Source: Trypanosoma brucei | Lineage: Eukaryota | Reading direction: 5' to 3' | NCBI GenBank assembly: GCA_000002445.1 | Contig: CP000070.1 | Location: 1,088,001 to 1,152,000 of the forward strand | DNA: 64,000 nt | In this document: positions 33,332-50,219 of the stretch, one piece after another | Layout of the letters: each line of letters starts with the position of its first letter | How positions within the stretch are numbered: the stretch's first letter is position 1 | Notes under the pieces: generated by a model | Databases searched by the model: none | Told to the model about the DNA's origin: nothing | Seen by the model: the letters and a program-made list of their open reading frames with translations, nothing else | Translations under genes and position numbers: made by a program

Positions 33332-36300
33332 ATGAAGGTAGGATTCATGGTTGGGAAGACGTATCTTCGGTATGTTGTGGGCCCACAGGGTGGTGCTGTC
33401 GCGAGCAATGGTTCCCTTTCATGTTACAGCAGTATCACGCGTCCGTCGTATGCCAAATCAACGGGAGTGGCGAAGACAACTTACAGTGAACGCAATAACC
33501 GAAATCAGGGGAGGGATAAGTCCTCAACCGCGGCTTCTGCTGTGATTTTCACTGCAAGTCTGGAGGCTGTGCGGGTGTACTCTCTGCGCAGCGGTGTGCT
33601 TCAACATACGTTAATACCTAGGGAAGGAAAAATGCCGTTGGAAGTTACCGCCCTCCGTGTTGTACCACTGGATATGGTCGGAACATCAACAGCGTCGGCA
33701 ACGCCACTGAATACCCTCAATCAAATTGAGCAAGAAGGATGGATGCTGTTGGTCGGATACCACAACGGGCACGTGGCAGTTTTTTCGTGTGGTCCGACAT
33801 CGAATTACGGGGAACCAGTTTGCCGTTTCTACGCCCTCGGTCACAAGATAGATACATCAGTTCTATCCGTTGCCATAGACTCGCAGCGCGCTTGCCTTTG
33901 TAGCGGGGGACAAGATACCGATCTTACCGTGTGGGATGTTGTGACTCAAGAGCCCTCTTTTCGGTTGCGTGGGCATCGGGGAGGTATTGTCGGTGTGGAG
34001 TTCGTACCACAACGACGCCCAACAGGCCGTTTAGTAGTTGTCACGGGCTCATCGGATGGTCTGATTAAAGTGTGGGAACTATCCATACGTCAGTGCTTGC
34101 AGACAATTGTCGCATCGGATACACAAGTGTCGTCTATACTAATTGATGCTACCGGTAGTCGGCTGTACTGTGGCCTCCGCGAAAGTCAACTGAAGGTGTT
34201 CAATACGGAAGAGCTCACTGCATCAAGTGAAATGGACAAGGAATTGGGTGCCGTCACAGAGCACGGAGGTGTTCCGCGCAAACACCAGAAGCCAATAACT
34301 TCTTTTTCCTTTTCATATGACGGCAACTTTCTCTTGGCGTGCACAAGCAAAACTGTGGAAATCTTTCGTATTCTGTCCCGCGACGATGTGCGACGGAAGG
34401 TTGCGCGGAAACGTAAGCGTCGGGAGGCAAAGAATAGCGGTAATGCCCCATTGAACGATGTGGCAGAGGATGATGGAGACGAGCCCAACGCCCCGGGTGA
34501 TGAGGATAGAATTGAGGAGAAGTTGCCACCGACGAGAATAACCACTGATGGCAAAAGTGAGGCTAATGACGCGGGTAGCAAAAGCACGCATTCTGCCCAC
34601 GCTACAGCCATGGAAGAGATGGCCTTGTTACGCACTTTCTTTCTTGACGAGAAGGTGCGTAGTGCTTGTTTCGTTCCTCCTTTCCCAGGCATGAGCGGTG
34701 GCAGAGGTAGTGGTAGTCCTGGACAGCTCCACATCGCTGTAACGTTTAACAACAATACAGTGCGCACATTCACTACTGCGCTGACATGCGGCGACCCCCC
34801 AGCTGCTGCTATGTGGTCGCTCGAGAACCTTTCGATGCGCCATACGATGGATTACAGCGGACACCAGTCTGACATCCGCTCGTTGCAGTTTGTCGACGAC
34901 GACACGACGTTGCTTTCGTTAAGCTCTGAAAAGCTGATGATGTGGAACATCTCCACGAAAGACCCGGAAGAGGATCACAGAAACGAGCACGATTTCTATG
35001 ATGCCGTAGAGGCAAATGTGAAGCGGGGTGATAAAACAGGGTCGCTCACATGTACATCTCAGGTCGCGCTTGACGATGCCGTTGCTGTTGCAGCCATCGC
35101 CTCAAACCTGTGCTGTGTAGGGCGTAAAGATGGGTCCGTATTGTTGGTTGACCTTCCCGCGGCGGAAACAGTGTTCACAGACACTGCAGTGCATGTTGGT
35201 GGTGTGCGGCATGTTACTCCACTCCCCGATAAAAGTGGTTTCGTTTCTGTTGGTGCTGACCGTCGCATGATCGTTTGGACTCTTGCTATGGTGAAGGCTG
35301 GCTCCGATGCCGCCTCTTCTGGTTCTGGCTCTCAAGCAGCGTCTCACCGCCATAAAAACTCATCCCCCGATACTCCAGAACCAACCGATGAAAACGGGAA
35401 TGGAGAGACCGATACAAAGAATATGTCACTTCAGTTACTGCAAAGCGCACAACTCGAGTTAACGGAGAGTCCTTTGTTCGCTGTGTGTAGTGCCGACGGG
35501 CGGTTCCTCGCGGTTGGGTTACAAAACACAAACATTCAGCTGTTCTTTGCTGACACAATGAAGCCGTACCTTTCCCTCTACGGTCATAAACTTCCACCTA
35601 CCGCGGCAACGTTCAGCACTGACGGTACTCTCATTGCCTCTTGTGGCATGGACAAAGCTCTGCGACTGTGGGGGACGGACTTTGGTGATTGTCATCGTTC
35701 TATTCATGCTCACGATGACTACGTGACGGACGTTGCTTTTTTTCGGGATACTCACCAACTTTTAACTGTTTCACTTGACGGTACACTCAAACATTGGGAC
35801 GGTGATAACTGGATAATGATCCAAATGTTCCGTCAGCACCAACGGGGTGTGTGGGCGGTTGCGGCGACGGCAAATAGCACATGTGTTGCGACAGCGGGAG
35901 TTGACAAATGCATTCGCTGTTTCTTACGCACCTCTGACATTGTCTTCCCAGCGGAGGAAGAAGAACGGTTAGCTCAGGAGGCGATGGATGAGGAGGCAGC
36001 AAAGCGAGCAGCGATGCAGAGTTTAAATGGCATCCAACACCAGCAGGAAGTGGGTGTGGCGGGTCATGCGACTACGGCAACTGCCGCTGCCGCGGAAAAG
36101 ATAATGGAAGCGCTCGATTTGGTGTCAGTGGAGCTACAACGACGGAAGAACGACTCGGATAGTGCTCCCCCAAACCCGCTTCTGGTGAACAAAACCGTCT
36201 GGGAATATCTCTGGTCCATCATAGAAAGTGTGCGACCCAGTGACTTGCGTCACGCGCTGTCCAACCTCACGAGCACACATGTTGATGCCTTGCTGGACTA

Positions 36301-36664
36301 CGTCGAGCAGATGCTGAAGGAACGGGCCGTGCTTAACTATGAGACCGCTGCGAGAATTCTGCTCGCTTTGGTTGGCACACCGGCTTCGGTGGCAACAACT
36401 CACATCGCTCGCGTAGCCGTTGCAGGTGAAGTGTCCGAGGCGCGTGGGGCACGCCGTCTAGCCGCCCTCCGCCGAATGATTGCTGAAGGCCTCGATCAAT
36501 CAGCAACGCGCATGGACTATAACGTTTCCGGCTTGCAGTTTGTTCGTAAGATACTCGAAGACAGCGAGAAGGCTCGCTTCTTCGACGTGAGCAAAGTCCA
36601 GGGGTACAAACAAAGGTATCACAGTCGTGTCCTCCATGAAGAGCAAAGAGGAGAGAAGCATTAA
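33332..36664 (+). CDS. UTP12: U3 snoRNP / SSU-processome WD40-repeat protein UTP12 (WDR3/Dip2 homologue)
   Basis: There are multiple WD repeats (LTVWDV, IKVWEL, LRLWGTDFGDCHRSIHAHDDYVTDVAF, LKHWDG). The block LFFADTMKPYLSLYGHKLPP...ALRLWGTDFGDCHRSIHAHDDYVTDV...LKHWDGDNW...HQRGVWAVAATANSTCVATAGVDKCIRCF is closely collinear with yeast Utp12 VKVFFLDSMKFYLSLYGHKLPV...[25 protein letters not shown]...VKYWDGEKF...[29 protein letters not shown]. The C-terminal AEKIMEALDL corresponds to the GERLMEALDL of the Utp12 domain. Confidence 0.8.
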   Translation: MKVGFMVGKTYLRYVVGPQGGAVASNGSLSCYSSITRPSYAKSTGVAKTTYSERNNRNQGRDKSSTAASAVIFTASLEAVRVYSLRSGVLQHTLIPREGKMPLEVTALRVVPLDMVGTSTASATPLNTLNQIEQEGWMLLVGYHNGHVAVFSCGPTSNYGEPVCRFYALGHKIDTSVLSVAIDSQRACLCSGGQDTDLTVWDVVTQEPSFRLRGHRGGIVGVEFVPQRRPTGRLVVVTGSSDGLIKVWELSIRQCLQTIVASDTQVSSILIDATGSRLYCGLRESQLKVFNTEELTASSEMDKELGAVTEHGGVPRKHQKPITSFSFSYDGNFLLACTSKTVEIFRILSRDDVRRKVARKRKRREAKNSGNAPLNDVAEDDGDEPNAPGDEDRIEEKLPPTRITTDGKSEANDAGSKSTHSAHATAMEEMALLRTFFLDEKVRSACFVPPFPGMSGGRGSGSPGQLHIAVTFNNNTVRTFTTALTCGDPPAAAMWSLENLSMRHTMDYSGHQSDIRSLQFVDDDTTLLSLSSEKLMMWNISTKDPEEDHRNEHDFYDAVEANVKRGDKTGSLTCTSQVALDDAVAVAAIASNLCCVGRKDGSVLLVDLPAAETVFTDTAVHVGGVRHVTPLPDKSGFVSVGADRRMIVWTLAMVKAGSDAASSGSGSQAASHRHKNSSPDTPEPTDENGNGETDTKNMSLQLLQSAQLELTESPLFAVCSADGRFLAVGLQNTNIQLFFADTMKPYLSLYGHKLPPTAATFSTDGTLIASCGMDKALRLWGTDFGDCHRSIHAHDDYVTDVAFFRDTHQLLTVSLDGTLKHWDGDNWIMIQMFRQHQRGVWAVAATANSTCVATAGVDKCIRCFLRTSDIVFPAEEEERLAQEAMDEEAAKRAAMQSLNGIQHQQEVGVAGHATTATAAAAEKIMEALDLVSVELQRRKNDSDSAPPNPLLVNKTVWEYLWSIIESVRPSDLRHALSNLTSTHVDALLDYVEQMLKERAVLNYETAARILLALVGTPASVATTHIARVAVAGEVSEARGARRLAALRRMIAEGLDQSATRMDYNVSGLQFVRKILEDSEKARFFDVSKVQGYKQRYHSRVLHEEQRGEKH

Positions 36665-37117
36665 CCCAACCGCTGGGGAGAAGAGCAATAATGAAGGTAA
36701 CACATCCCAGCAATGTATCGCTGGTAATAAATCAGTCATGTGGTGGCTTTGCATCTTAATTAAAGTTCTACCTTGTGACAAAGGGCTGCAGCCTATGCTA
36801 GGAAGTAAAATGGAGCGTTAATTTTATTCGGTGGGGAGTATTATTGTAAAGGTCCCTCAATAAACGTGTAAGACGTAACCCAAAGTAGGGGCTTAAGGAA
36901 GGATGGAAGGGCACTAGAGCATGTGTCCAGTCGCAGGTGCACACGCATAAGCCCCAATGTTCCTCTCCTTGTATTCCCGTGTTCCGCCTACACGCGAACA
37001 CCCGTACAAACTCAAGAGCACAAATCACTGCATCATTGTTTCTCTTCACTCTTCCCATAATTTTTCAATGTTTGCACAGACCCCATAGCAAGTAAGTGGA
37101 GAAAAAGGTAACACACA

Positions 37118-37858
37118 GTGAGTAAGAAAAGCAGCAACGACGAGAAACAAAAGTTTGGCGTAATGGTGATGAAGGCTTTCCCCCTTTCCCTGTTAGCGGC
37201 AACCACTGTGTTATTACTGCTGCTTCCTGTTCCTGGTAGGTGTGCTGATTGCTTTGCTCATTCAAATGATTACTCCACTCCCGGGGAGCCGTTCGGCAAA
37301 TCGAAGCACACAATCACCTTAAGTGGTGGGAACTGGGGCACTGTCATAGGCAGTGACGGAAATGCACTAAAGACGGCCCTTCTACTTGACATTTACGCTC
37401 AAATACTGCGACGGCATGCTTTTAACACTTCCGTCACCGTCGACGATATGCGACAGGGAGAGCATGGCATGGAAGCTGAAGTAACCGTTACACAGGTTTT
37501 GTTGACTGATGTCCCTAGGGCCGACTTGCAGCATACATGGAATCCCAACGAAATAACATCGTTGTTAATGCAAGGGGTGTACAAACACACAAAAGATAAA
37601 CACGATCCGCATTCAGACGTCCATCTCGTTAGTGTCAGACTCCCCGCTGCGACTACAGAGCTCCACAAGTGTGGGAAGGCCTGTTGGACTGTTCGGTTAA
37701 TAGGCATCTTTATAGGGATAGCCATGATTCTCATTGCAGCATACACTATATTCATAACGCGTAAATGGGAAAAGCAAGCGGAAAAAGAACCGGATGACGA
37801 CTCTTCGCGGGAACCATTGCCAGAACAAGAACAGAGGAGGTCGAGAACACGCGTGTAG
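37118..37858 (+). CDS. Small type-I membrane protein, copy A of a 4-member family (signal peptide, about 150-aa ectodomain, one TM, short charged tail)
   Basis: MVMKAFPLSLLAATTVLLLLLPVPGRC forms a signal peptide. The C-terminal LIGIFIGIAMILIAAYTIFI is a TM segment followed by a charged tail. The motifs KTALLLDIYAQILRRHAF, LQHTWNPNEITSLLMQGVYKHT and LHKCGKACW are shared with the paralogues at 46100, 47900 and 49539. The likely true start is the Met at 37163 or 37169. Confidence 0.6.
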   Translation: MSKKSSNDEKQKFGVMVMKAFPLSLLAATTVLLLLLPVPGRCADCFAHSNDYSTPGEPFGKSKHTITLSGGNWGTVIGSDGNALKTALLLDIYAQILRRHAFNTSVTVDDMRQGEHGMEAEVTVTQVLLTDVPRADLQHTWNPNEITSLLMQGVYKHTKDKHDPHSDVHLVSVRLPAATTELHKCGKACWTVRLIGIFIGIAMILIAAYTIFITRKWEKQAEKEPDDDSSREPLPEQEQRRSRTRV

Positions 37859-37879
37859 CATCGTTTCATTAGCAGCGGC

Positions 37880-40800
37880 GACAACAATCCGAAGTAATGC
37901 GCGGTTAGTTGCGGACAACATTCCACTGCGTCTCTTTGATATACTTTTTTTTGCTTTTGCTTTTCGCTGCATATACCAGCACCCCACTCCACGTGTGGTG
38001 AGGAGCTTGGGGTGGCATTCTTTGTTTGAACGCCTCCCATCCCCTTTTATGTTATTTTATGTTTTTTTTCCCCCTCTTGCTCGTTTATTCCCGCCCACCT
38101 TGTTGCTTTGACTGCCCTATGTACGACTGATAAATATGCATTGGACAACACATGGCTACTATTCAGTGTCTAAATACATCTTGCACACGCGGTCTTCCTG
38201 TTACTGCATGCACGGAAACTACTTTGAGCCCCCCCTTCCTTTCCCTCCCTACTTTTTCATCTTTCATATTATACCACATACATTTTGTGTATTACTCATT
38301 TTACCGTTAGCACCACCTTGCAAAGTTGTTAGCGTAATATGGGAATGTGTGTATTATATACTTCCCAATTGAATCCATATTCGGGAAGTTTTCTGTCTCC
38401 TCACTCGCCTCGTTGAAATCCTGTTAGTTGTCTCGGTATCAATGATAATATTGATGTGTGTTGAATGGTGGTTTATGGATGTGACTGTATTTTGTTGCGT
38501 ATGAACCACTGGAATGATTAAAAGGTCCTTTTAGCACTGCGGGGTTATGAATATTAATAGCCTGCACTCGTGTCAATGTATCTGGTAGTATTTTCACACC
38601 CCACCCACGTGCAACTTTTTACCTTTGCTCTGAGTTATTCTACTCCACACACCCATCGTTGCAACATTATTGGAAGTTAAGTGCTTTAGTAGTCATTAAT
38701 TTTGTAACGACTCTAATTAACGCGGTTCCGGTCGACAAAATTAAGCACTGCTGACACCCACTTCTTTATTTCCCCCACCTGGAAACAATGACTCGGCAAT
38801 CCGATGTGCAAAAATCCATGAGGACAATTTCTGATGGAGCGGAAAAGGCAGTAGAAGTACGGAAATATGACGAGAAAGCGGTGCAGCAGCGGATGCAGAA
38901 ACTTTATGCCGATGTGGCGAAAAAGAAATTAGCTGAGAAGAAGCGAGCTGATGAGTTGGCGCAGATCCCGGTGTCGGAGGAGGATGTGCAACTTTTGGTG
39001 CGTGAATGCGGTTGGGAGGCGCAGGTGGCACAACAGAAACTCCGTGAGAGGAATGGAAGCGTTGTGGCGGTTCTTCGAGATGTTGCGGGACTCCCGAAGG
39101 CCAAAGCATCGAGTGGAACCTCCTGAAACCTGACAAACAAAAAAAAACATTTACAATATAATGGTTATGACTGATTGAATGAGAGCAGCAGCGAGAGAAA
39201 CGGAAGTTGGCGGGGCCCTTTTGGTTGACTTGTTACGAGATGCTCAGAGGTGTGGAGCGTAAGCATGTGTGTAATCCCACTGAAGACAATTGCATGGTGA
39301 TGCAGGGGATGTTTGAGTTCATACAAATCTCAAACAAACACTGTAGAGGCGTTGAACTCATTAATGTCAAACTCCATCTGATTATTTCAGGCACGAATGC
39401 CCTCATGTAGGATGAAAAGGATTGCCACTTCCTTCATGTCGCAACGGATTCGCTATCAATTGCAACAGCTCCGACCTACAGCTTGTTGTGAGTTTTTAAC
39501 GCGCTTGGACTTCGGTAATGAACTTGGAACTTGATTTCCTGAGGATCGCCGCGGTGCATAATTTGTTCCTTCCCCATTTGATGTGAGCAGTGCGGTGCAC
39601 TTAACCATTGTGGTATCACTGCTTCGCTTTCTATGAGTGTGTGCTGTACAAATCTAATTCCTCTTCCACTATTTACCGTATTTGAAGCTCATTAAAGGAA
39701 CCATAATTAGCAAAGGGGGCACACTCAGTTGTCAAGGCAGTGGAACCCACAACATCCGCGCACAGCGGTGACACAAATGCATAATAGCTGCTTTTCATAC
39801 ACCTCTATTGTGGGGATGTTGATTCTCAAAGCGTAGTGGTTGTAATTTGAAATCAGGCATGGAGCGTCTGGGTAGGCGCATCGAGGCCAATCGCTTTATT
39901 ATGGGACAGTTGGATGGTATGCGAGGGTGCACGCCTGCTGTTGGTTGCAGCGGCAGCCTCAAAAAATTAAGTTATGCAACACTCGGTGTATTGCGCCGGG
40001 AGAATATGCGGCGGTGCGGGTGAGCCCTTTCACTGCACTTTGGGCAGCGGGGGTTGGGATGGTATCTACAGGGGATCTACTTCACATTGGAAAGTAAACG
40101 TCACAACTGCTGTCTCGACTGGTCGCTGATAGAACCCGTGAGGTGGAGAGAGAGACTGCTAGACCGGAGTTCCCTTCCAGGACGGATTAGCATCGGCAAA
40201 CCGAGAGGCACAAGCACGCCCTCGTTGTTGAATTACTGATCGGCATTCTGTTGGAGGTATGAAGGAATCGCAGTGGCGGCGGTGTTGATTAAAGTTTGAG
40301 AAACCTCGAGGAAAGGGAAAACCTCGTGTCGCAAAAGTCACTATTTCCCGGGAGTCACACCGGCTATAGAGGCTGAAATTGAATACTTGAGAAAACAGTT
40401 GGGCGACTGTAAAGAACAACTTATAAAATACAGAGCACACTTTGAGCAGGTTAACCACGTTATTAAGAATAGACGAATTAAAGGAAATGGTTCAGCAGCA
40501 AGCTCAGACATTGGAAAAGCTCGAAAAATATTATCAAGAACAAAACGCCCAAAAGGTCCCGTGGCCGCTGATCCTCGGAAACGATGTCTGTAAACCCCCA
40601 ACCTTCCTCCATAGACCGTCAACAGAGCACTCAGATGTACCAACATGTTTCCACTACTCCGCTCGGCTTTAGTATAAACTGGGTCGGATGGAAAAACAGA
40701 GCGGAAACCTCTGAAGGACTTTTACAATTGTATGACGAATGTGGGACTACAATTGGGAATCCTGAGAGGCCTTCATGGTACAATTCTGTAAATTAATGGG

Positions 40801-41515
40801 GGGGAAGTGAATCATCTCTACATTTTTGGACGTTCACAAGATGGGTACGGTATTATGACCACTTCGTGGCTACGGCGAATAGAATGCCAATACAATATAT
40901 AACAACAGGGGCAGCTATGTATAAAACATGGCGAATGGAAATGGCAGCACAGAAAAGAGGAGTATTTATCCCACGGGCAATACAAGAAGGATTGGATACT
41001 GAAGGAGGTATCAATGTATGATAAGATGGCAAACGCAGCTGCAAAACAAAGAGCTCAGAGAAGTCGCCAAGGACGGAATTGAAGCAATTTCAACAACCAT
41101 CAGCGTCGAACAAGCCCAAACGGGCGAAGGAAGTCCCCATCGCGGAAACAGTAGCAAAGGCGAGACTGAGCGGGGCTCGTAAAATATACCGCTCCCGACA
41201 TAAGAGAATGAAACAAAAGGCGAAGAAAGAATGGTCAAAACTACAAATCCACAAGAACAGTGAATATGTTCGAAAACACATGGGAAACAAGAAAATTCTA
41301 TGGGGGTGTTGCGATCCGCGCGCGGATATACGCAACAAAGAGATACGGGGATGCACAAATAAAATAGTAGCTCCGGCACCACCTAACCCAGTGACTGTCC
41401 CCCGCGCGCAGATTAGGCCCTGTTCGTCAGGGAACTCTGAGCGAGAGCACTGTCCGGACCTTAAAATGCCCATTCAAGCACCGGAAGTCAAGCCGATGCT
41501 ATGGCGTAAACTATT
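37880..41515. repeat. Left arm (3636 bp) of a near-perfect inverted repeat
   Basis: The boundaries were located by direct reverse-complement comparison. gacaacaatccgaagtaatgcgcggttagtt starting at 37880 matches the reverse complement ending at 46117. Identity ends after ctatt at 41515, which pairs with aatag at 42482-42486. Every ORF-track peptide inside this arm has an identical mirror on the opposite strand of the right arm. One C/T mismatch was seen near the outer edge, at 37912 versus 46076. Confidence 0.9.
38788..39126 (+). CDS. HYPK-like / UBA-like small protein (copy 1, in the left arm)
   Basis: The 112-aa protein has a long charged helix (KKKLAEKKRADELAQ) followed by a C-terminal EEDVQLLVRECGWEAQVAQQKLRERNGSVVAVLRDV block that resembles the NAC-alpha/HYPK C-terminal UBA-like domain. 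Confidence 0.5.
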   Translation: MTRQSDVQKSMRTISDGAEKAVEVRKYDEKAVQQRMQKLYADVAKKKLAEKKRADELAQIPVSEEDVQLLVRECGWEAQVAQQKLRERNGSVVAVLRDVAGLPKAKASSGTS

Positions 41516-41528
41516 AGGCTGGCATTAA
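40387..41528 (+). mobile_element. Left-arm mirror copy of the 5' part of a degenerate retroelement (frameshifted ORF1-like region plus a basic K/R-rich ORF), truncated at the arm/spacer junction
   Basis: Three overlapping + ORFs in different frames (40387-40593, 40442-40672, 40584-40796) look like one frameshifted coiled-coil ORF. They are followed by 41079-41528, which encodes the basic protein MKQFQQPSASNKPKRAKE.... On the other arm this ORF reads on into the spacer, where RT motifs follow. Confidence 0.45.
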
Positions 41529-42481
41529 CACGCTTGCACGCATTGTTGAAAAAAACTGAACTTCCTCATTATTTCTTGGAACCAGTCTAGCGGCTCAGTT
41601 GCTAATACTTTTGCCGTAGCCACCAGGCTTCCAAATAATTTTTCAAGGTCTCGCAGGTCGATTAATTTCAAATATTCTTGTGTCGTCATCTGAATAAATT
41701 GTCTAGCCACATTATTTTCAATTTATTCAGATGTTTTTCTGTTACTTGTACACTTTTATTATTGTGGTCCAAGACCGCTCCTATGGAATCATAACTGGTG
41801 GCGTAAGGCAGCGGTTCGGATAATGTCACGCAGTATTTCTCCACCTTGCCGTGGAGGAGGCTAATTATTTTTGGCGCTTGTTTTTCCGTAATTGCTAGTC
41901 TGAAATTATCGATCCAGACATCACCGTCTATCATCCGGTGCTCTCAACGCGTTACCTGCGAGTGCCCCGTTAATGTCATTACCAACCACTGCATAATTTC
42001 GCAGCTTGTTGTTAATCCCATGGGCAATTGTGTCATTTCCAAAGGCGAACCATCTGCAGTTGCAATGGAGAAGCATGCGGTGGTGTTTACCGGCAGGTCA
42101 ATTTCATAGTAACTTGCTTTTAAATCACCCACTATTGCTCCAGCAGCGGAGAGTATGTCCAGGTACTCCTGGAACGGGTTTAATTCCACTATACAGCGAT
42201 AATCACACACATTATCTAAATAGTCATTCGTCGTGTTTGGCCATACCAATAGTCTCCTCCTGTTTTTCCAGGGTTCATCGACTGTAGATGCACGGGCGAC
42301 TGGGGGATCCACTGTCGATTTCGTGATATTCGCGCTGAGTACGGTCTTGGCATCACTGGATGATAGCCACTAACGCGCTGGGACGTCGCCTATTTCGTCC
42401 CGTCTTACGTATTGCGCGGCATCGGCTAATTGCCGGAGCAGCACTTGAATTCTTTCTTGCACCTTATTTTTTGTCGAACGC
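41516..42481. other. Unique 966-bp spacer of the palindrome, holding the RT fragment of the retroelement
   Basis: This region has no mirror partner. It is fully occupied by minus-strand ORFs that continue the right-arm retroelement. Confidence 0.8.
41525..42312 (-). pseudogene. Frameshifted reverse-transcriptase fragment (Ty3/gypsy- or DIRS/VIPER-like) with a degenerate YxDD box
   Basis: The minus-strand ORF 41944-42312 contains GDLKASYYEIDL...TTACFSIATADGSPLEMTQLPMGLTTSCEIMQWLV. This is collinear with RT motifs iDLrsGYhQI ... KTAFrt.yG.yEf.vmPFGLtNAPa.FQ. The next ORF, 41686-41934 in another frame, has DVWIDNFRLAIT where VYlDDILIfS is expected. Frameshifts separate three consecutive ORFs. 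Confidence 0.55.
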
Positions 42482-43610
42482 AATAGTTTACGCCATAGCA
42501 TCGGCTTGACTTCCGGTGCTTGAATGGGCATTTTAAGGTCCGGACAGTGCTCTCGCTCAGAGTTCCCTGACGAACAGGGCCTAATCTGCGCGCGGGGGAC
42601 AGTCACTGGGTTAGGTGGTGCCGGAGCTACTATTTTATTTGTGCATCCCCGTATCTCTTTGTTGCGTATATCCGCGCGCGGATCGCAACACCCCCATAGA
42701 ATTTTCTTGTTTCCCATGTGTTTTCGAACATATTCACTGTTCTTGTGGATTTGTAGTTTTGACCATTCTTTCTTCGCCTTTTGTTTCATTCTCTTATGTC
42801 GGGAGCGGTATATTTTACGAGCCCCGCTCAGTCTCGCCTTTGCTACTGTTTCCGCGATGGGGACTTCCTTCGCCCGTTTGGGCTTGTTCGACGCTGATGG
42901 TTGTTGAAATTGCTTCAATTCCGTCCTTGGCGACTTCTCTGAGCTCTTTGTTTTGCAGCTGCGTTTGCCATCTTATCATACATTGATACCTCCTTCAGTA
43001 TCCAATCCTTCTTGTATTGCCCGTGGGATAAATACTCCTCTTTTCTGTGCTGCCATTTCCATTCGCCATGTTTTATACATAGCTGCCCCTGTTGTTATAT
43101 ATTGTATTGGCATTCTATTCGCCGTAGCCACGAAGTGGTCATAATACCGTACCCATCTTGTGAACGTCCAAAAATGTAGAGATGATTCACTTCCCCCCCA
43201 TTAATTTACAGAATTGTACCATGAAGGCCTCTCAGGATTCCCAATTGTAGTCCCACATTCGTCATACAATTGTAAAAGTCCTTCAGAGGTTTCCGCTCTG
43301 TTTTTCCATCCGACCCAGTTTATACTAAAGCCGAGCGGAGTAGTGGAAACATGTTGGTACATCTGAGTGCTCTGTTGACGGTCTATGGAGGAAGGTTGGG
43401 GGTTTACAGACATCGTTTCCGAGGATCAGCGGCCACGGGACCTTTTGGGCGTTTTGTTCTTGATAATATTTTTCGAGCTTTTCCAATGTCTGAGCTTGCT
43501 GCTGAACCATTTCCTTTAATTCGTCTATTCTTAATAACGTGGTTAACCTGCTCAAAGTGTGCTCTGTATTTTATAAGTTGTTCTTTACAGTCGCCCAACT
43601 GTTTTCTCAA
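41525..43610 (-). mobile_element. Degenerate VIPER/DIRS- or LTR-class retroelement remnant on the minus strand: a frameshifted ORF1-like region, a basic ORF (42370-42918) and the RT fragment. It is truncated where it abuts the left arm.
   Basis: The minus-strand ORFs 43404-43610, 43325-43555, 43201-43413, 42370-42918, 41944-42312, 41686-41934 and 41525-41710 are contiguous in one direction. The RT motifs are as described for the RT-fragment pseudogene feature. The element ends within about 10 bp of the palindrome junction at 41515/41516. Confidence 0.5.
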
Positions 43611-46117
43611 GTATTCAATTTCAGCCTCTATAGCCGGTGTGACTCCCGGGAAATAGTGACTTTTGCGACACGAGGTTTTCCCTTTCCTCGAGGTTTCTCA
43701 AACTTTAATCAACACCGCCGCCACTGCGATTCCTTCATACCTCCAACAGAATGCCGATCAGTAATTCAACAACGAGGGCGTGCTTGTGCCTCTCGGTTTG
43801 CCGATGCTAATCCGTCCTGGAAGGGAACTCCGGTCTAGCAGTCTCTCTCTCCACCTCACGGGTTCTATCAGCGACCAGTCGAGACAGCAGTTGTGACGTT
43901 TACTTTCCAATGTGAAGTAGATCCCCTGTAGATACCATCCCAACCCCCGCTGCCCAAAGTGCAGTGAAAGGGCTCACCCGCACCGCCGCATATTCTCCCG
44001 GCGCAATACACCGAGTGTTGCATAACTTAATTTTTTGAGGCTGCCGCTGCAACCAACAGCAGGCGTGCACCCTCGCATACCATCCAACTGTCCCATAATA
44101 AAGCGATTGGCCTCGATGCGCCTACCCAGACGCTCCATGCCTGATTTCAAATTACAACCACTACGCTTTGAGAATCAACATCCCCACAATAGAGGTGTAT
44201 GAAAAGCAGCTATTATGCATTTGTGTCACCGCTGTGCGCGGATGTTGTGGGTTCCACTGCCTTGACAACTGAGTGTGCCCCCTTTGCTAATTATGGTTCC
44301 TTTAATGAGCTTCAAATACGGTAAATAGTGGAAGAGGAATTAGATTTGTACAGCACACACTCATAGAAAGCGAAGCAGTGATACCACAATGGTTAAGTGC
44401 ACCGCACTGCTCACATCAAATGGGGAAGGAACAAATTATGCACCGCGGCGATCCTCAGGAAATCAAGTTCCAAGTTCATTACCGAAGTCCAAGCGCGTTA
44501 AAAACTCACAACAAGCTGTAGGTCGGAGCTGTTGCAATTGATAGCGAATCCGTTGCGACATGAAGGAAGTGGCAATCCTTTTCATCCTACATGAGGGCAT
44601 TCGTGCCTGAAATAATCAGATGGAGTTTGACATTAATGAGTTCAACGCCTCTACAGTGTTTGTTTGAGATTTGTATGAACTCAAACATCCCCTGCATCAC
44701 CATGCAATTGTCTTCAGTGGGATTACACACATGCTTACGCTCCACACCTCTGAGCATCTCGTAACAAGTCAACCAAAAGGGCCCCGCCAACTTCCGTTTC
44801 TCTCGCTGCTGCTCTCATTCAATCAGTCATAACCATTATATTGTAAATGTTTTTTTTTGTTTGTCAGGTTTCAGGAGGTTCCACTCGATGCTTTGGCCTT
44901 CGGGAGTCCCGCAACATCTCGAAGAACCGCCACAACGCTTCCATTCCTCTCACGGAGTTTCTGTTGTGCCACCTGCGCCTCCCAACCGCATTCACGCACC
45001 AAAAGTTGCACATCCTCCTCCGACACCGGGATCTGCGCCAACTCATCAGCTCGCTTCTTCTCAGCTAATTTCTTTTTCGCCACATCGGCATAAAGTTTCT
45101 GCATCCGCTGCTGCACCGCTTTCTCGTCATATTTCCGTACTTCTACTGCCTTTTCCGCTCCATCAGAAATTGTCCTCATGGATTTTTGCACATCGGATTG
45201 CCGAGTCATTGTTTCCAGGTGGGGGAAATAAAGAAGTGGGTGTCAGCAGTGCTTAATTTTGTCGACCGGAACCGCGTTAATTAGAGTCGTTACAAAATTA
45301 ATGACTACTAAAGCACTTAACTTCCAATAATGTTGCAACGATGGGTGTGTGGAGTAGAATAACTCAGAGCAAAGGTAAAAAGTTGCACGTGGGTGGGGTG
45401 TGAAAATACTACCAGATACATTGACACGAGTGCAGGCTATTAATATTCATAACCCCGCAGTGCTAAAAGGACCTTTTAATCATTCCAGTGGTTCATACGC
45501 AACAAAATACAGTCACATCCATAAACCACCATTCAACACACATCAATATTATCATTGATACCGAGACAACTAACAGGATTTCAACGAGGCGAGTGAGGAG
45601 ACAGAAAACTTCCCGAATATGGATTCAATTGGGAAGTATATAATACACACATTCCCATATTACGCTAACAACTTTGCAAGGTGGTGCTAACGGTAAAATG
45701 AGTAATACACAAAATGTATGTGGTATAATATGAAAGATGAAAAAGTAGGGAGGGAAAGGAAGGGGGGGCTCAAAGTAGTTTCCGTGCATGCAGTAACAGG
45801 AAGACCGCGTGTGCAAGATGTATTTAGACACTGAATAGTAGCCATGTGTTGTCCAATGCATATTTATCAGTCGTACATAGGGCAGTCAAAGCAACAAGGT
45901 GGGCGGGAATAAACGAGCAAGAGGGGGAAAAAAAACATAAAATAACATAAAAGGGGATGGGAGGCGTTCAAACAAAGAATGCCACCCCAAGCTCCTCACC
46001 ACACGTGGAGTGGGGTGCTGGTATATGCAGCGAAAAGCAAAAGCAAAAAAAAGTATATCAAAGAGACGCAGTGGAATGTTGTCCACAACTAACCGCGCAT
46101 TACTTCGGATTGTTGTC
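42482..46117. repeat. Right arm (3636 bp) of the inverted repeat
   Basis: It is the reverse complement of 37880-41515, as described for the left arm. Confidence 0.9.
44871..45209 (-). CDS. HYPK-like / UBA-like small protein (copy 2, in the right arm; identical translation to copy 1)
   Basis: A 112-aa translation identical to that of 38788-39126. Confidence 0.5.
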   Translation of the reverse strand: MTRQSDVQKSMRTISDGAEKAVEVRKYDEKAVQQRMQKLYADVAKKKLAEKKRADELAQIPVSEEDVQLLVRECGWEAQVAQQKLRERNGSVVAVLRDVAGLPKAKASSGTS

Positions 46118-46975
46118 AGCACTATTGCTATCAGATATGCCTTCGTTACTTTCTGTTTCCATTCTGGCATCGTCGACGTTTAGGACATTGACTGCATGTT
46201 TATTTGGAGTAGGAATGTCTTCCTCTTCTTCTTCTTCATCTTCCTCTTTTTCTGCATCCCTTCTCCATTTAAAAATTAAGAATACGCAAATTGCAGAAAC
46301 GAGAGCCATAAAAAACAAAATGACGCCCGAGAAGGTTCGCAGAGCCGCGCAGCCCTCCCCGCACCTATGAAGTTTTTCACTTATGGTCGGGTTCTTGACG
46401 CTCAGGAGGCGCACGGCACCGTTGCTACCGGTTTCGCTGTTACCACCGTACTCATTGTACAAGTTGTTTGTGTGTTTATACGTTCCTTGCATTAGTAACG
46501 ACGATATCTCGCTGGGATTCCATGTGTGCTGCATCTTCTCGCTCGGGGTACCATTTATCAAAACTTGCGTAATGGTCACTGTAACACTCATGTGTTTACC
46601 TCGAGTATTTACGTCGTTGATGTCAGCTGTGGTGTCGAAAGCGTGTCTCCGTAATATTTGAGCGTAAATATCAAGAAGAAGAGCCGTCTTTAGTTTCCTT
46701 TCACCCCCCGTATACACACCACCCCACTTATCGCCACTAAAAGTGATTACATGTTTCGATGTGCCCAACTGTTCTTCGTCAGTGGAATTATTGTCCCTCG
46801 GTGTTGCAAAGCAATTTTTCGAGAGAGTGGGCATGGGGATCAGCAACAGCATTGCTGCTGTTGTAAGAGAAAATGAAACCTTCACTGTCATTATGCTGAA
46901 AAGGGCTTTCTCTTTTCCTTTCTTTTTGTAAGCTACCCGTGTTTTACTTCTTTGCTCTAAGCCAAAACTTACCAA
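46100..46975 (-). CDS. Small type-I membrane protein family, copy B. It has a divergent N-terminus and a longer acidic tail. The likely start is the Met at 46891.
   Basis: MTVKVSFSLTTAAMLLLIPMPTLS is a signal peptide. KTALLLDIYAQILRRHAF, MQHTWNPSEISSLLMQGTYKHT and LHRCGEGCAAL match family motifs. The TM segment is VILFFMALVSAICVFLIF. The last 5 codons and the stop lie inside the right palindrome arm. Confidence 0.6.
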   Translation of the reverse strand: MVSFGLEQRSKTRVAYKKKGKEKALFSIMTVKVSFSLTTAAMLLLIPMPTLSKNCFATPRDNNSTDEEQLGTSKHVITFSGDKWGGVYTGGERKLKTALLLDIYAQILRRHAFDTTADINDVNTRGKHMSVTVTITQVLINGTPSEKMQHTWNPSEISSLLMQGTYKHTNNLYNEYGGNSETGSNGAVRLLSVKNPTISEKLHRCGEGCAALRTFSGVILFFMALVSAICVFLIFKWRRDAEKEEDEEEEEEDIPTPNKHAVNVLNVDDARMETESNEGISDSNSADNNPK

Positions 46976-47899
46976 TAATTCGAGTACGGTTGAAGAAAGA
47001 AAGAAAGGGGGGAGTGAAGGGAATCATGTTGGACAGAATCCACAACAAAAATTATAATTAACCGAATGGATCAACTTCATTGTCCAAACAGTCTCTGTTG
47101 TACTGCTGTTGTCGTCACCGTTCATTTGTGGTGAGGGAAGGAATTGTGTGTGCCGATTTATCCTTCCTGTTTTCTCTTAATAACGAGACAATAAAATAAG
47201 TGACCGTTAATATCTTTTATTTTCTTTTCTTCCCCCGGTACTCGAACCGCAAGGCGGGGGAGTCACATATAACGAGAGATCAAAGATACAAATAAATAAT
47301 ATAAAACAGCAGAAGGGCACACACACACATACATATATATATATATACATGTATGAGGGAACGAAATTAAGATAGTTTTTAACAAGGAGGAAGAAATAAA
47401 GCACTGAAAACTAAAAGAAACTCGACGCAACGGCTCTCAATATTCGCCGTACTTTACTCTCAGGGATCGCAGAGGTGTATTTTTTTTTCTTTCCTTGTCC
47501 CATTTCTTTTGGCACCTCCCGCGGCCTGCTCGTGGAAGAATGCACATAATTACGATAACTTACGTTCATGTCATATAAAATAATAATAATAGACAACAAC
47601 GACGCGGTGGCGATGATTGTTTTGATTAAATAACCTGAAGGGGGAAAAAAAAAAGAAACCTCAGTGGAGGAATATTCACAGATGGATGTTTTTTTCATTA
47701 TTATTTTGTTTTTGTTTCTGCGGGTGACAGCCTTTCCTTTAATTTTATTTGTTGGTTATGTACCGCTCATGTCCTACGTTGAGTGGTGGAAGAAGCACAA
47801 AAACAAGACTACAGCACAACTGAGTGAACAAATAAACTAACAACAAAAGTAATCGGATTGAAGCAGTGACGAATAAAACTTTTTTCACTACATATGCCT

Positions 47900-48613
47900 T
47901 TATTTGTTTGTTTCCTCAGTCCTATAGTGGTCTTGATTGTAAGGATGATTGGCATTGCTCTCATCTTTTTCTTTTGGTTCCCCACGGCAACAGTTGACGA
48001 TTAGGTAAATGATCAAAATAAGTAAAGAAACCCCCATTAAAATAATAACTACCATCGCCAGCTTTAATAGTCGCCTGCATGTGTCATCGCACTCACCAAA
48101 ATGCAGTTTTCCATCATGCACCTTCACGGAGATGAGTTCCGGTCTCTTCACACCTTCGTACAAACTTAGCGTTTTACTATAATCCGTCTGCGTAATAAGT
48201 GAATTCACCTCCGCAGGCGGCCAAATGTGTTGCCTCTCAGGATTTGAAACTTGTGCCCTGACGGTTTGTACAACAACTATGAGTATTTCGATAAAGTTGT
48301 GTGTGGGGTCGAATGAGGTAATTAAAACCTCCGTCAGAAAACTTCCATTCCGTTGCACGTAACGATCGATGTCGCTCACAAGTATTTCCCTCAGTTGTTC
48401 CTCTTTCTGCTGGACAGTTGCCGCCCAATTGTCGCCATCAAATTTCACGGTATGTTTTGATGTTGAGGACTGCTGGATGTCGTCAGCACACCTACCAGGA
48501 ACAGGAAGCAGCAGTAATAACACAGTGGTTGCCGCTAACAGGGAAAGGTGGAAAGCCTTCATCACCATTACGCCAAACTTTTGTTTCTCGTCGTTGCTGC
48601 TTTTCTTACTCAC
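47900..48613 (-). CDS. Small type-I membrane protein family, copy C
   Basis: The N-terminal 40 aa are identical to copy A (MSKKSSNDEKQKFGVMVMKAF.LSLLAATTVLLLLLPVPGRCAD), as is the 5' flank. The ectodomain is divergent (RQHIWPPAEVNSLITQTDYSKT; LHFGECDDTCRRL). A C-terminal TM segment and short tail follow. Confidence 0.6.
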   Translation of the reverse strand: MSKKSSNDEKQKFGVMVMKAFHLSLLAATTVLLLLLPVPGRCADDIQQSSTSKHTVKFDGDNWAATVQQKEEQLREILVSDIDRYVQRNGSFLTEVLITSFDPTHNFIEILIVVVQTVRAQVSNPERQHIWPPAEVNSLITQTDYSKTLSLYEGVKRPELISVKVHDGKLHFGECDDTCRRLLKLAMVVIILMGVSLLILIIYLIVNCCRGEPKEKDESNANHPYNQDHYRTEETNK

Positions 48614-49538
48614 TGTGTGTTACCTTTTTCTCCACTTACTTGCTATGGGGTCTGTGCAAACATTGAAAAATTATGGGAAGAGTGAAGAGAAACAATGGTG
48701 CAGTGATTTGTGCTCTTGAGTTTGTACGGGTGTGCGCGTGTATTAAGTCAAGAAATGAGTGAGATAACAATGACCAATAAACAGGAGTCAGAAAGAGTAT
48801 TTGTACAAAGAAAAATTAGTGAACGATGCGGGAGAGCAACAACACAAGCTCAATAACAATAACGGAAAAAAGCAATGAAGACGACAGTCGCTTTGCCTAC
48901 TTGTCATCACAAATGTTAATTTCCTGCTGATGGGCAATAACCCAATGCCTACCCTCGGTAATTTGGTGAGATTCAGAGAAAAAAAGCAAAGGAATGTGGG
49001 AATTTCTTCGATCGAATGGAAACCCCTCAAAAAGGAGGAAAAAGTAAACATACGTAAAAATAACTCCCCCTCCTTCTGTCACACGAATATACAAGAATAT
49101 ATGTATTTTTACGCACACGTGAATTAAATGTTGCGCGCAACAAGAAATAAAACACAAGAGAACTTACATTGCCATTTTTTGTTTTAGTATCATCTGTTTA
49201 AGACAAATATCAACCGGTGAAGCACAAAGAGTTGTTGAAACAGAGATAAATAGATAAATTCAATAGTGTATATGAAGCACGGAGTGATGACAGTCGAAAA
49301 TACGAAGGAACGGGATGCGCATAACACAGAAGAGTGAATACGGTGCAATGACAAATCAAAAGAAAAAATACAACTCACTCGATATCATGAGACTTCTACA
49401 ATCAGAAAGCATTTGCTATTAGCGTGGAAAAAGAATGAAGAAGCAATAAAATATGTATAACAATGGCACGTACCTATAGCCACAGCTAGTATTGGGGGCA
49501 TCGAACCTGATGGGGCTAGTCCGCCGTTTTCGGTCACT

Positions 49539-50219
49539 TTAATCCCTTTCTTCAAGTTTCGGACGCCGGAAATGCGAATAAATCCAAATGTACGCCGTCA
49601 CACTAACTATTATGGTCATAGCAGCGAGAGACACGGCCACCACACCTCTAAGAATTTGACAGCTCGTGCCACATAATGGCGGACCCGGGGGAACCAAAGG
49701 AAGTCTGACGGTAATGAGTTCAACATCCCCATGGGGTTTGTACGTGCTTTTTGTGTGTTCAAATTTTCCCTGCATTATCATAGAGTTGGCCTCACTGGGA
49801 TTCCACACATGCTGCAACTCAGGCGTGGGGTCATCAGCCAATGCAACTTGTGTAACGGTCACTTCAACTTCCATTTCCCCCTCTCTCACTTTCATATTGT
49901 TGATGGTAACGGTGGTGTTGACGGCGTACTCCCGTTGCGTTTGCAAGTAAATGTCGAGCAAAAGTGACTTCCTCAACTTCGCTTCATCACTTATGACAAT
50001 TTCGTCCCATTTCGTGCCTTTAAAGGTGATTATGTGCTTCGATTTGCCGAACTCCGTTGGTTGCAAGTACAACATCGTACCATTGAGGCAGTCAGAGTGT
50101 GCGGGAACAGGAAGCAGCAGTAATAACACAGTGGTTGCCGCTAACAGGGAAAGGGGGAAAGCCTTCATCACCATTACGCCAAACTTTTGTTTCTCGTCGT
50201 TGCTGCTTTTCTTACTCAC
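49539..50219 (-). CDS. Small type-I membrane protein family, copy D
   Basis: It shares the N-terminus and 5' flank with copies A and C. Family motifs are RKSLLLDIYLQTQREYAV and LQHVWNPSEANSMIMQGKFEHT. The TM segment is VAVSLAAMTIIVSVTAYIWIY. Confidence 0.6.
   Translation of the reverse strand: MSKKSSNDEKQKFGVMVMKAFPLSLLAATTVLLLLLPVPAHSDCLNGTMLYLQPTEFGKSKHIITFKGTKWDEIVISDEAKLRKSLLLDIYLQTQREYAVNTTVTINNMKVREGEMEVEVTVTQVALADDPTPELQHVWNPSEANSMIMQGKFEHTKSTYKPHGDVELITVRLPLVPPGPPLCGTSCQILRGVVAVSLAAMTIIVSVTAYIWIYSHFRRPKLEERD

What the first reader, a model, noticed from the sequence alone, without database searches (positions are those of the whole stretch)
37858..46117. The outer palindrome boundaries coincide with the 3' ends of two inverted paralogues of a membrane-protein gene family
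The left arm starts 22 bp after the stop codon of family copy A (+, 37118-37858). The right arm ends 15 bp inside the 3' end of copy B (-, 46100-46975). The last five codons of copy B (DNNPK) and its stop are part of the arm. The same 18 nt occur non-coding just past copy A. So the two divergent paralogues face each other and share homologous 3' termini and 3' flanks that continue seamlessly into the identical arms. This is the geometry expected if the inverted duplication formed, or is homogenised, by recombination between inverted family members. The family genes may therefore serve as portable homology for rearrangements at this strand-switch region.
Basis: seen in the sequence. Interest (0 to 1): 0.55.

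Follow-up and report, generated by a model that had tools for sequence, protein, structure and literature searches.

The report
Known trypanosome palindrome edged by paralogous genes
The 3.6-kb palindrome is the already published siRNA-producing inverted repeat IR3 of Trypanosoma brucei chromosome 7; its outer edges do sit in the last codons of two facing surface-protein paralogues (ESP12 and ESP13), most likely because that is where gene conversion between the arms stops.

Summary
The coordinates are correct. The arms are 37880-41515 and 42482-46117 (3,636 nt, one mismatch), separated by a 966-nt spacer. The left arm starts 21 nt after the stop of copy A. The right arm includes the last five codons and stop of copy B.

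The window is T. brucei TREU927 chromosome 7. The palindrome is Tb927_07_IR3 (Tschudi et al. 2012), the richest inverted-repeat siRNA source; their two probes map exactly in the arms. A is ESP12 and B is ESP13.

New here:
- The 21 nt between ESP12's stop and the arm are exactly 7 codons, so DNNPK* lies in ESP12's frame. ESP12 probably once ended as ESP13 does.
- The arms evolve in concert. They differ 1.2% between subspecies but at only 1-12 sites within a genome.
- The identity edge is 3 nt further out in TREU927 than in six other assemblies.
- "Family gene, HYPK, family gene" is the ancestral order in T. vivax.

Best reading: IR3 is the homogenised core of an inverted duplication of that module, and its edge is the limit of arm-to-arm conversion. 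The T. congolense locus could not be fetched. Interest is modest.

The parts
36989..37248 (+). 5' UTR and signal-peptide patch of copy A, 99% identical in inverted orientation to the 5' ends of copies C (48483-48742) and D (50104-50348)
   Evidence: I2, I3; protein alignment
37118..37858 (+). Copy A = ESP12 (annotated 231-aa product starts at ATG 37163). It is a type-I membrane protein and the last full-length family gene of the + transcription unit
   Evidence: localisation in PMC4587319
37859..37879 (+). 21 nt, exactly 7 codons (HRFISSG), between ESP12's TAG and the arm. It keeps the arm's DNNPK* in ESP12's frame and is the presumed relic of a longer ancestral C-terminus
37880..41515 (+). 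Left arm of palindrome Tb927_07_IR3. The first 18 nt (37880-37897) are DNNPK* read as non-coding. The single arm mismatch is at 37912
38788..39126 (+). HYPK-type UBA-domain gene, copy 1 (112 aa)
   Evidence: PF19026, E 2e-11
39255..39392 (+). Relic of a further family gene inside the arm (matches copy D residues 134-179 at 48% identity). Its mirror copy is at 44605-44742 (-)
   Evidence: E 1.6e-8
40233..40593 (.). Zone of the arm containing both published IR3 siRNA Northern probes (mirror zone 43404-43764)
41516..42481 (.). Unique 966-nt spacer
41875..42297 (-). Degenerate reverse-transcriptase relic of a VIPER-like (tyrosine-recombinase) retroelement, confined to the spacer
   Evidence: (E 3.5e-13 to a T. 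cruzi element)
42482..46117 (-). Right arm of IR3. Its outermost 18 nt (46117-46100) are the last five codons and stop of ESP13
44871..45209 (-). HYPK-type UBA-domain gene, copy 2
46100..46975 (-). Copy B = ESP13 (annotated 263-aa product starts at ATG 46891)
47900..48613 (-). Copy C of the family (222 aa from its ATG)
49539..50219 (-). Copy D of the family (211 aa from its ATG), the closest paralogue of A overall

Best explanation
The feature is the outer edge of Tb927_07_IR3, a long palindrome at the convergent strand-switch region between the WDR3/UTP12 transcription unit and the NudC transcription unit on T. brucei chromosome 7. Each arm copies an ancestral gene module: the 3' end and 3' UTR of an ESP-family gene, a HYPK-like gene, a relic of the next family gene, and about 2.1 kb of non-coding DNA. 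ESP12 and ESP13 are the family genes in the equivalent position just outside each arm. The arms are kept nearly identical by frequent arm-to-arm (intrachromosomal, inverted) gene conversion. The edge of identity lies where the two family genes have become too different for conversion tracts to extend, inside the last five codons of the ancestral family-gene reading frame. ESP12 later gained, or already carried, an in-frame premature stop 12 codons before that ancestral stop, so the same 18 nt are now non-coding on its side. Consequences: ESP12 and ESP13 mRNAs share the same 3' flank, HYPK exists as two identical genes, and read-through from either unit can form a long hairpin RNA that is diced into siRNAs (published). 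Shown: coordinates, frame relation, concerted evolution, movement of the edge, outgroup gene order, and identity with IR3. Inferred: gene conversion as the homogenising mechanism, and that the original duplication reached into the family gene.
For: Identity with IR3: the repeat length (3,636 bp), the single mismatch and chromosome 7 all match, and both published probes hit the arms exactly. Concerted evolution: TREU927 and gambiense arms differ at 44-45 of 3,632 sites (1.24%), like unique flanking DNA (0.97%). Within a genome the arms differ at 1 (TREU927), 2 (gambiense) or 12 (IVM-t1) sites, and at 41 of 55 variable sites both arms of a genome carry the same allele. The edge is an edge of conversion. 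In gambiense, IVM-t1 and OVI the right arm reads GAA AAC... and the left arm GAC AAC..., while in TREU927 both read GAC, so identity reaches 3 nt further out there. Collapsed contigs from three other read sets start exactly at 37883. Within-genome arm differences cluster near the outer edge: 37912 in TREU927, 37882 in gambiense, and 11 of 12 IVM-t1 substitutions in the outer 1.65 kb. Positional homology: ESP12's frame reads ...RTRV*HRFISSG|DNNPK*. A and B alone share the juxtamembrane KW..AEKE.D motif and an identical 19-residue block. T. vivax has WDR3, family gene, HYPK, family gene, HYPK, family gene on one strand, and its family gene upstream of HYPK has an ESP13-like acidic tail ending N/S-rich. 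A family-gene relic lies downstream of HYPK in both arms, as in the outgroups.
Against: DNA similarity in the 30-90 nt just outside the edge is not significant, so the extension of homology beyond the arm rests on the frame coincidence (1 in 3 by chance) and a few residues. Overall A is closer to D than to B, which is unexpected if A and B were the outer parts of one duplication; mosaic conversion from other family members would have to be invoked. The sharp step from chance-level identity to about 100% also fits a true duplication breakpoint. Near-identity of arms in Sanger or short-read assemblies can be inflated by collapse. The long-read IVM-t1 assembly does resolve 12 differences, and Tschudi et al. 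confirmed IR3 by PCR. The closest outgroup, T. congolense, could not be examined.
Confidence: 0.6

Rival explanations
1. Homology-primed formation. ESP12-like and ESP13-like genes already faced each other across the strand-switch region. A broken end in the shared 3' terminus of one gene invaded the other and copied its downstream region (3' UTR, HYPK, relic, non-coding DNA) by break-induced replication or long-tract conversion. This created the second arm, with the family-gene terminus as the outer junction.
For: HYPK and the family genes lie on the WDR3 side and strand in T. vivax, T. cruzi and T. melophagium. The NudC side carries neither in T. vivax or T. theileri. The right-hand HYPK copy is therefore in a derived position. 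The outer junction lies inside the shared, in-frame C-terminal codons. Family members do exchange patches in inverted orientation. The edge is sharp.
Against: There is no direct trace of such an event. Only 15-18 nt of shared terminus can be seen, which is little for strand invasion unless the tails were more alike at the time. The model does not explain how B, C and D came to lie on the NudC strand. Present identity is explained by ongoing arm-to-arm conversion whatever the origin. This model can coexist with the best explanation.
Confidence: 0.25
2. Selection sets the edge. Conversion tracts do run into the coding regions, but such products are removed because ESP12 and ESP13 have different functions, so the edge sits at the stop codon for functional rather than mechanical reasons.
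For: ESP12 localises to the flagellar pocket and endosomes, and ESP13 to the whole cell surface (PMC4587319). The edge lies within a few codons of the end of the ORF. In TREU927 conversion did change ESP13's fifth-last residue, E to D.
Against: Untestable with sequence alone. The tails outside the edge are so different in length and sequence that mechanical failure of heteroduplex extension suffices to explain the edge.
Confidence: 0.1
3. A single recent inverted duplication with breakpoints near the two stop codons by chance, the arms being identical only because the event is young.
For: Sharp edges on both sides.
Against: The same palindrome with the same edge is present in TREU927, gambiense, T. 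b. equiperdum IVM-t1, T. equiperdum OVI and three other read sets. The arms have diverged 1.2% between lineages yet stay within 0.03-0.33% within genomes. Two breakpoints within about 20 nt of paralogue stops, and in frame, are very unlikely by chance.
Confidence: 0.03
4. Assembly artefact: the second arm or its perfection is produced by misassembly.
For: Near-perfect repeats are prone to collapse or duplication in assemblies.
Against: Tschudi et al. verified IR3 by PCR in strain YTat 1.1. Four independent assemblies show it, one of them resolving 12 arm differences.
Confidence: 0.02

Closest known systems
Tb927_07_IR3, long inverted repeat siRNA locus of T. brucei (Tschudi et al. 2012, BMC Genomics 13:427, PMC3447711)
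   Same: It is the same object: chromosome 7, 3,636-bp repeat, one mismatch, and both published probes map in the arms. It was the most abundant inverted-repeat source of AGO1-bound small RNAs, and the spacer also gave reads.
   Different: A term search of the paper found no mention of gene conversion or recombination. The passages read do not describe the genes at the edges, the in-frame relation to ESP12 and ESP13, or cross-strain concerted evolution. Its authors guessed at selective pressure or a role for RNAi in keeping the arms identical.
Large palindromes kept identical by arm-to-arm gene conversion, e.g. human Y-chromosome palindromes P1-P8 (Rozen et al. 2003; from my own knowledge)
   Same: Arms are more than 99.9% identical around a unique spacer, genes are present in mirror pairs, and divergence between lineages far exceeds divergence between arms.
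   Different: It is about 1,000-fold smaller, lies at an RNA polymerase II termination zone in a protist, and produces siRNAs. The conversion mechanism is inferred here, not measured.
Hairpin-RNA endogenous siRNA loci of animals and plants (Okamura et al. 2008; cited in PMC3447711)
   Same: An inverted repeat with a loop whose transcript can fold back and be diced.
   Different: The arms contain a protein-coding gene (HYPK) and the 3' flanks of two others. Dependence on either Dicer is only partial (73% and 41% of wild type).
Inverted-repeat-mediated rearrangement and amplification in Leishmania (Ubeda et al. 2014, PMC4028189; Laffitte et al. 2014, PMC4256157; seen only as titles and abstracts)
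   Same: Dispersed repeated sequences in inverted orientation serve as recombination substrates in a trypanosomatid.
   Different: Those events give extrachromosomal linear amplicons under selection. This structure is fixed in the chromosome and shared by all T. brucei subspecies examined.

Membership tests
Tb927_07_IR3 (Tschudi et al. 2012) | Chromosome 7 of T. brucei TREU927; inverted repeat of 3,636 bp with one mismatch | tested here: met
Tb927_07_IR3 (Tschudi et al. 2012) | The published IR3-specific oligonucleotide probes match the repeat | tested here: met
   Both 25-mers match with 0 mismatches, once in each arm
Palindrome under arm-to-arm gene conversion | Within-genome arm divergence much lower than between-lineage divergence of the same sequence | tested here: met
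   1-12 differences within genomes against 40-45 between TREU927 and the other two; 41 of 55 variable sites are shared by both arms of a genome
Palindrome under arm-to-arm gene conversion | Direct observation of conversion events or tracts | not testable with these tools
   Needs pedigree or clone data, or induced-break experiments. The only indirect hint is the 3-nt outward shift of identity in TREU927
Hairpin-RNA siRNA locus | Small RNAs of siRNA size, bound to Argonaute, derive from the arms | not testable with these tools
   Taken from the literature only: 372,045 reads, with Northern validation
Hairpin-RNA siRNA locus | A single transcript spans both arms | not tested
   No transcript data are available here
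ESP surface-protein family (ESP12, ESP13; Gadelha et al. 2015) | Sequence identity to the named proteins | tested here: met
   Exact matches to XP_846046 (ESP12) and XP_846049 (ESP13)
VIPER / tyrosine-recombinase retroelement (spacer relic) | Reverse-transcriptase homology to an element that also encodes a tyrosine recombinase and RNase H | tested here: met
   E 3.5e-13 to the RT of a T. cruzi element whose ORFs, read by eye (no profile match), show a zinc knuckle, an HSIERG motif and an RNase H-like stretch. The T. cruzi RT matches Pfam RVT_1 only below its cutoff (E 0.0028, 17.9 bits against 29.6)
VIPER / tyrosine-recombinase retroelement (spacer relic) | Recombinase, gag and RNase H parts present at this locus | tested here: not met
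   No hits in the window even at E up to 5. Only an RT fragment with stop codons survives

The most novel reading that the evidence does not exclude
Paralogous surface-protein genes facing each other at a transcription-termination zone supplied the short shared 3' terminus that primed a break-induced inverted duplication. This created T. brucei's most productive endogenous hairpin siRNA locus. Arm-to-arm conversion now reaches into, and occasionally rewrites, the coding end of ESP13 (E to D in TREU927). If the other six long inverted repeats of T. brucei are edged by paralogues in the same way, gene-family-anchored palindrome formation would be a general route to hairpin siRNA loci in trypanosomes.
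Probability: 0.2. Interest if true: 0.5.

Novelty: already known. Interest (0 to 1): 0.3.

Why it matters
Tschudi et al. called the near-perfect identity of these long inverted repeats a curiosity and guessed at selection or RNAi. The cross-strain comparison here gives a simpler answer: ordinary concerted evolution by arm-to-arm conversion. It also shows that the identity edge is movable and sits in the last codons of two surface-protein paralogues. As a result, ESP12 and ESP13 differ in localisation but share the same 3' flank, which is where most gene regulation acts in trypanosomes. It also means conversion can alter ESP13's C-terminus. This adds detail to a known locus; it does not describe a new kind of system.

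Tried and rejected
- **Right arm as the original.** I first thought the right arm plus spacer was the original unit, because one minus-strand frame runs from the right arm through the RT relic. Rejected: retroelement homology is confined to the spacer, and outgroup gene order puts HYPK on the WDR3 side.
- **DNA homology beyond the edge.** I looked for significant similarity just outside the arms and found none.
- **C and D flanks.** I tested whether the 3' flanks of C and D resemble the arm. They do not.
- **T. congolense.** A related HYPK contig (L017, 904 nt) was too short to be informative.
- **RNA genes and tandem repeats.** No tRNA genes in the window and no Rfam family or tandem repeat in 36000-51000.
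- **Pfam.** No assignment for the small ORFs in the inner arm or for the RT relic itself.
- **Spacer flip isomers.** None among four assemblies.
Full report
**What is in the sequence**

The window carries a near-perfect palindrome with arms 37880-41515 and 42482-46117, each 3,636 nt, around a 966-nt spacer. A base-by-base comparison finds one mismatch, at 37912/46085. Identity falls to chance level immediately outside both the outer and the inner edges.

All long ORFs to the left are on the + strand, the last being copy A at 37118-37858. All long ORFs to the right are on the - strand, the first being copy B at 46100-46975. This is therefore a convergent strand-switch region.

A's TAG ends at 37858 and the arm begins at 37880. 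B's last five codons (DNNPK) and its TAA occupy 46117-46100, inside the right arm. The same 18 nt lie at 37880-37897. A and B are paralogues (tblastn E about 1e-54 to 1e-56, 41-43% identity), and two more members, C (47900-48613) and D (49539-50219), follow B on the - strand.

**Identity of the locus**

Copy B is 100% identical to a T. brucei brucei TREU927 protein on a 2,205,233-bp record. Exact look-ups name A as ESP12 and B as ESP13, "enriched in surface-labeled proteome" proteins. In bloodstream forms ESP12 was localised to the flagellar pocket and endosomes and ESP13 to the whole cell surface (PMC4587319).

Each arm contains a 112-aa gene with a HYPK-type UBA domain, at 38788-39126 and 44871-45209.

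The palindrome is already published. Tschudi et al. 2012 (PMC3447711) list Tb927_07_IR3 on chromosome 7 with a repeat length of 3,636 bp and one mismatch. It gave 372,045 AGO1-associated small-RNA reads, the most of the seven long inverted repeats. It was verified by PCR in another strain, and the spacer also gave reads. Their two IR3 Northern probes match the window exactly, once per arm, at 40233-40257/43740-43764 and 40569-40593/43404-43428. A term search of that paper found no mention of gene conversion or recombination, and the passages I read do not describe the genes at the edges.

**Anatomy of an arm and of the spacer**

From outside inwards, the left arm contains:
- the 18-nt DNNPK* element;
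- about 890 nt of flank up to the HYPK gene;
- the HYPK gene;
- a 46-codon relic of another family gene, 130 nt after HYPK's stop, at 39255-39392 (48% identical to D residues 134-179, E 1.6e-8);
- about 2.1 kb with no recognisable gene, RNA family or tandem repeat. This stretch includes the siRNA probe sites.

The spacer holds a degenerate reverse-transcriptase fragment on the - strand (41875-42297). It is homologous to the RT of a T. cruzi element (E 3.5e-13). By my reading of that element's ORFs, without a profile match, it also encodes a zinc-knuckle protein, a tyrosine-recombinase-like protein and RNase H, so it looks VIPER-like. No other part of that element can be found in the arms, even at permissive thresholds.

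**Is the edge a breakpoint or a conversion limit?**

Five results bear on this.

1. The 21 nt between ESP12's stop and the arm are exactly seven codons. ESP12's frame reads ...RTRV*HRFISSG followed by DNNPK*. One in-frame stop thus separates ESP12 from the ending that ESP13 still uses. The TAG is present in gambiense and in T. b. equiperdum as well.

2. Among the four paralogues, only A and B share the juxtamembrane motif KW..AEKE.D. They also share an identical 19-residue block, LKTALLLDIYAQILRRHAF. Elsewhere A is closer to D, and its signal peptide is that of C and D. The genes are mosaics.

3. Local DNA alignment of the 30-90 nt just outside the edge is no better than shuffled sequence (p 0.1-0.99). 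The claim of seamless homology therefore rests on the frame and a few residues, not on significant DNA similarity.

4. The edge moves. In gambiense, T. b. equiperdum IVM-t1 and T. equiperdum OVI, the right arm starts GAA AAC (ENNPK) while the left arm has GAC AAC. In TREU927 both arms have GAC. Contigs from three other read sets, in which the repeat is collapsed, start exactly at 37883. Identity therefore reaches 3 nt further out in TREU927. The likely cause is a conversion from the non-coding left copy that changed ESP13's fifth-last residue.

5. Within-genome arm differences lie near the outer edge: 37912 in TREU927, 37882 in gambiense, and 11 of 12 substitutions in the outer 1.65 kb in IVM-t1. 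This is expected if conversion tracts often stop short of the edge.

**Concerted evolution**

The palindrome has the same outer edge in T. b. gambiense DAL972 and in T. b. equiperdum IVM-t1. T. equiperdum OVI has a contig with ESP13, the right arm and the spacer.

| Comparison | Differences |
|---|---|
| TREU927 arms vs gambiense arms | 44-45 of 3,632 sites (1.24%) |
| Unique left flank, TREU927 vs gambiense | 0.97% |
| Between the two arms, TREU927 | 1 site |
| Between the two arms, gambiense | 2 sites |
| Between the two arms, IVM-t1 | 12 sites |

Of 55 variable ungapped columns, 41 have both arms of a genome carrying the same allele while genomes differ. This is the signature of ongoing arm-to-arm homogenisation and rules out a young one-off duplication.

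Assembly collapse could exaggerate within-genome identity. However, the IVM-t1 assembly resolves arm differences, and IR3 was confirmed by PCR. The spacer has the same orientation in all four assemblies, so no flip isomer was seen.

**Origin, from outgroups**

- T. vivax has WDR3, a family gene, HYPK, a family gene, HYPK and a family gene, all on one strand.
- T. cruzi and T. melophagium have WDR3, then further genes, then HYPK, then three to six family genes on the same strand.
- The T. vivax family gene upstream of HYPK has a long acidic tail ending N/S-rich, like ESP13.

The left half of the T. brucei structure (WDR3, ESP12, HYPK, family relic) is therefore in the ancestral position.

The NudC side carries no HYPK or family genes in T. 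vivax or T. theileri. In the T. vivax assembly, NudC is on a different scaffold from WDR3. The right-hand block (D, C, ESP13, HYPK, relic) is therefore derived.

I cannot tell whether it arose as a larger inverted duplication whose outer parts have since diverged, or by copying primed from the shared terminus of pre-existing inverted paralogues. T. congolense, the outgroup that would decide this, could not be reached.

**Most likely explanation**

IR3 is the homogenised core of an inverted duplication of the module "family gene, HYPK, family gene". ESP12 and ESP13 are positional homologues just outside it. The edge is where conversion between the arms can no longer extend because the two genes have diverged (confidence about 0.6).

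The broader idea that the family serves as portable homology has one real piece of support. A 260-nt patch (5' UTR and signal peptide) is 99% identical between A and C/D in inverted orientation across the palindrome, and this holds in all three genomes examined. That shows patchy conversion within the family. It does not show that the family built the palindrome.

**Function**

What the locus does is known from the literature: it is a major source of endogenous siRNAs, probably through hairpin RNA from read-through at the termination zone.

What the edge geometry adds:
- ESP12 and ESP13 transcripts share the same 3' flank from the stop onward, except 21 nt.
- HYPK is present as two identical genes.
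- ESP13's C-terminus is exposed to conversion from a non-coding copy.

Whether siRNAs act on these mRNAs was not testable here. The published probes lie in the inner arm, not in the shared flank.

**Verdict**

The object is already known. The new details are the in-frame relic, the demonstrated concerted evolution, the movable edge and the ancestral module. They are useful but modest.

Noticed in passing
L014 15295-20906 (T. vivax, GCA_021307395.1 SOPI01000326.1): The T. vivax NudC transcription unit also ends in a palindrome: arms of at least 2,339 nt, 100% complementary, with a 645-nt spacer. Each arm carries a VIPER-like element with recombinase-like (HSIKRG), RT and RNase H-like stretches. 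The right arm runs off the fetched locus.
   Followed up: partly
window 41516-42481: The spacer has diverged about twice as much between TREU927 and the other subspecies (2.3-2.6% substitutions) as the arms (1.24%) or the unique flank (0.97%).
   Followed up: partly
L004 1-3305 and 6306-9600 (T. b. gambiense): Gambiense has an extra tandem unit (copy C, ESP13 and the outer 508 nt of the arm, 99.3% identical). The outer arm segment therefore exists three times there, and ESP13 travels with this 3' flank.
   Followed up: partly
window 36989-37248, 48483-48780, 50104-50386: The 5' UTR and signal-peptide region is 99-100% identical among copies A, C and D, although the rest of these genes is only 32-49% identical at protein level. 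The same N-terminal sharing between neighbouring paralogues is seen in T. vivax, T. cruzi and T. melophagium.
   Followed up: partly
L009 versus L014 (T. vivax): In this T. vivax assembly the WDR3-HYPK block and the NudC block are on different scaffolds (SOPI01000403.1 and SOPI01000326.1). The T. brucei strand-switch region holding IR3 may therefore be a synteny breakpoint.
   Followed up: no
window 37163-37858, 46100-46891, 47900-48568, 49539-50174: Several database names call these proteins 'T. brucei spp.-specific', but clear homologues (tblastn E 1e-15 to 1e-34) sit next to HYPK in T. vivax, T. cruzi and T. melophagium. Copy C passes the Pfam cutoff for the FAZ1 conserved domain.
   Followed up: partly
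L002 (T. b. equiperdum IVM-t1), arm positions equivalent to window 38054-39530: In IVM-t1 the outer part of the right arm carries seven private alleles and four TREU927-like alleles, while the left arm is gambiense-like. The two arms appear to hold different haplotypes that have been only partly homogenised.
   Followed up: no
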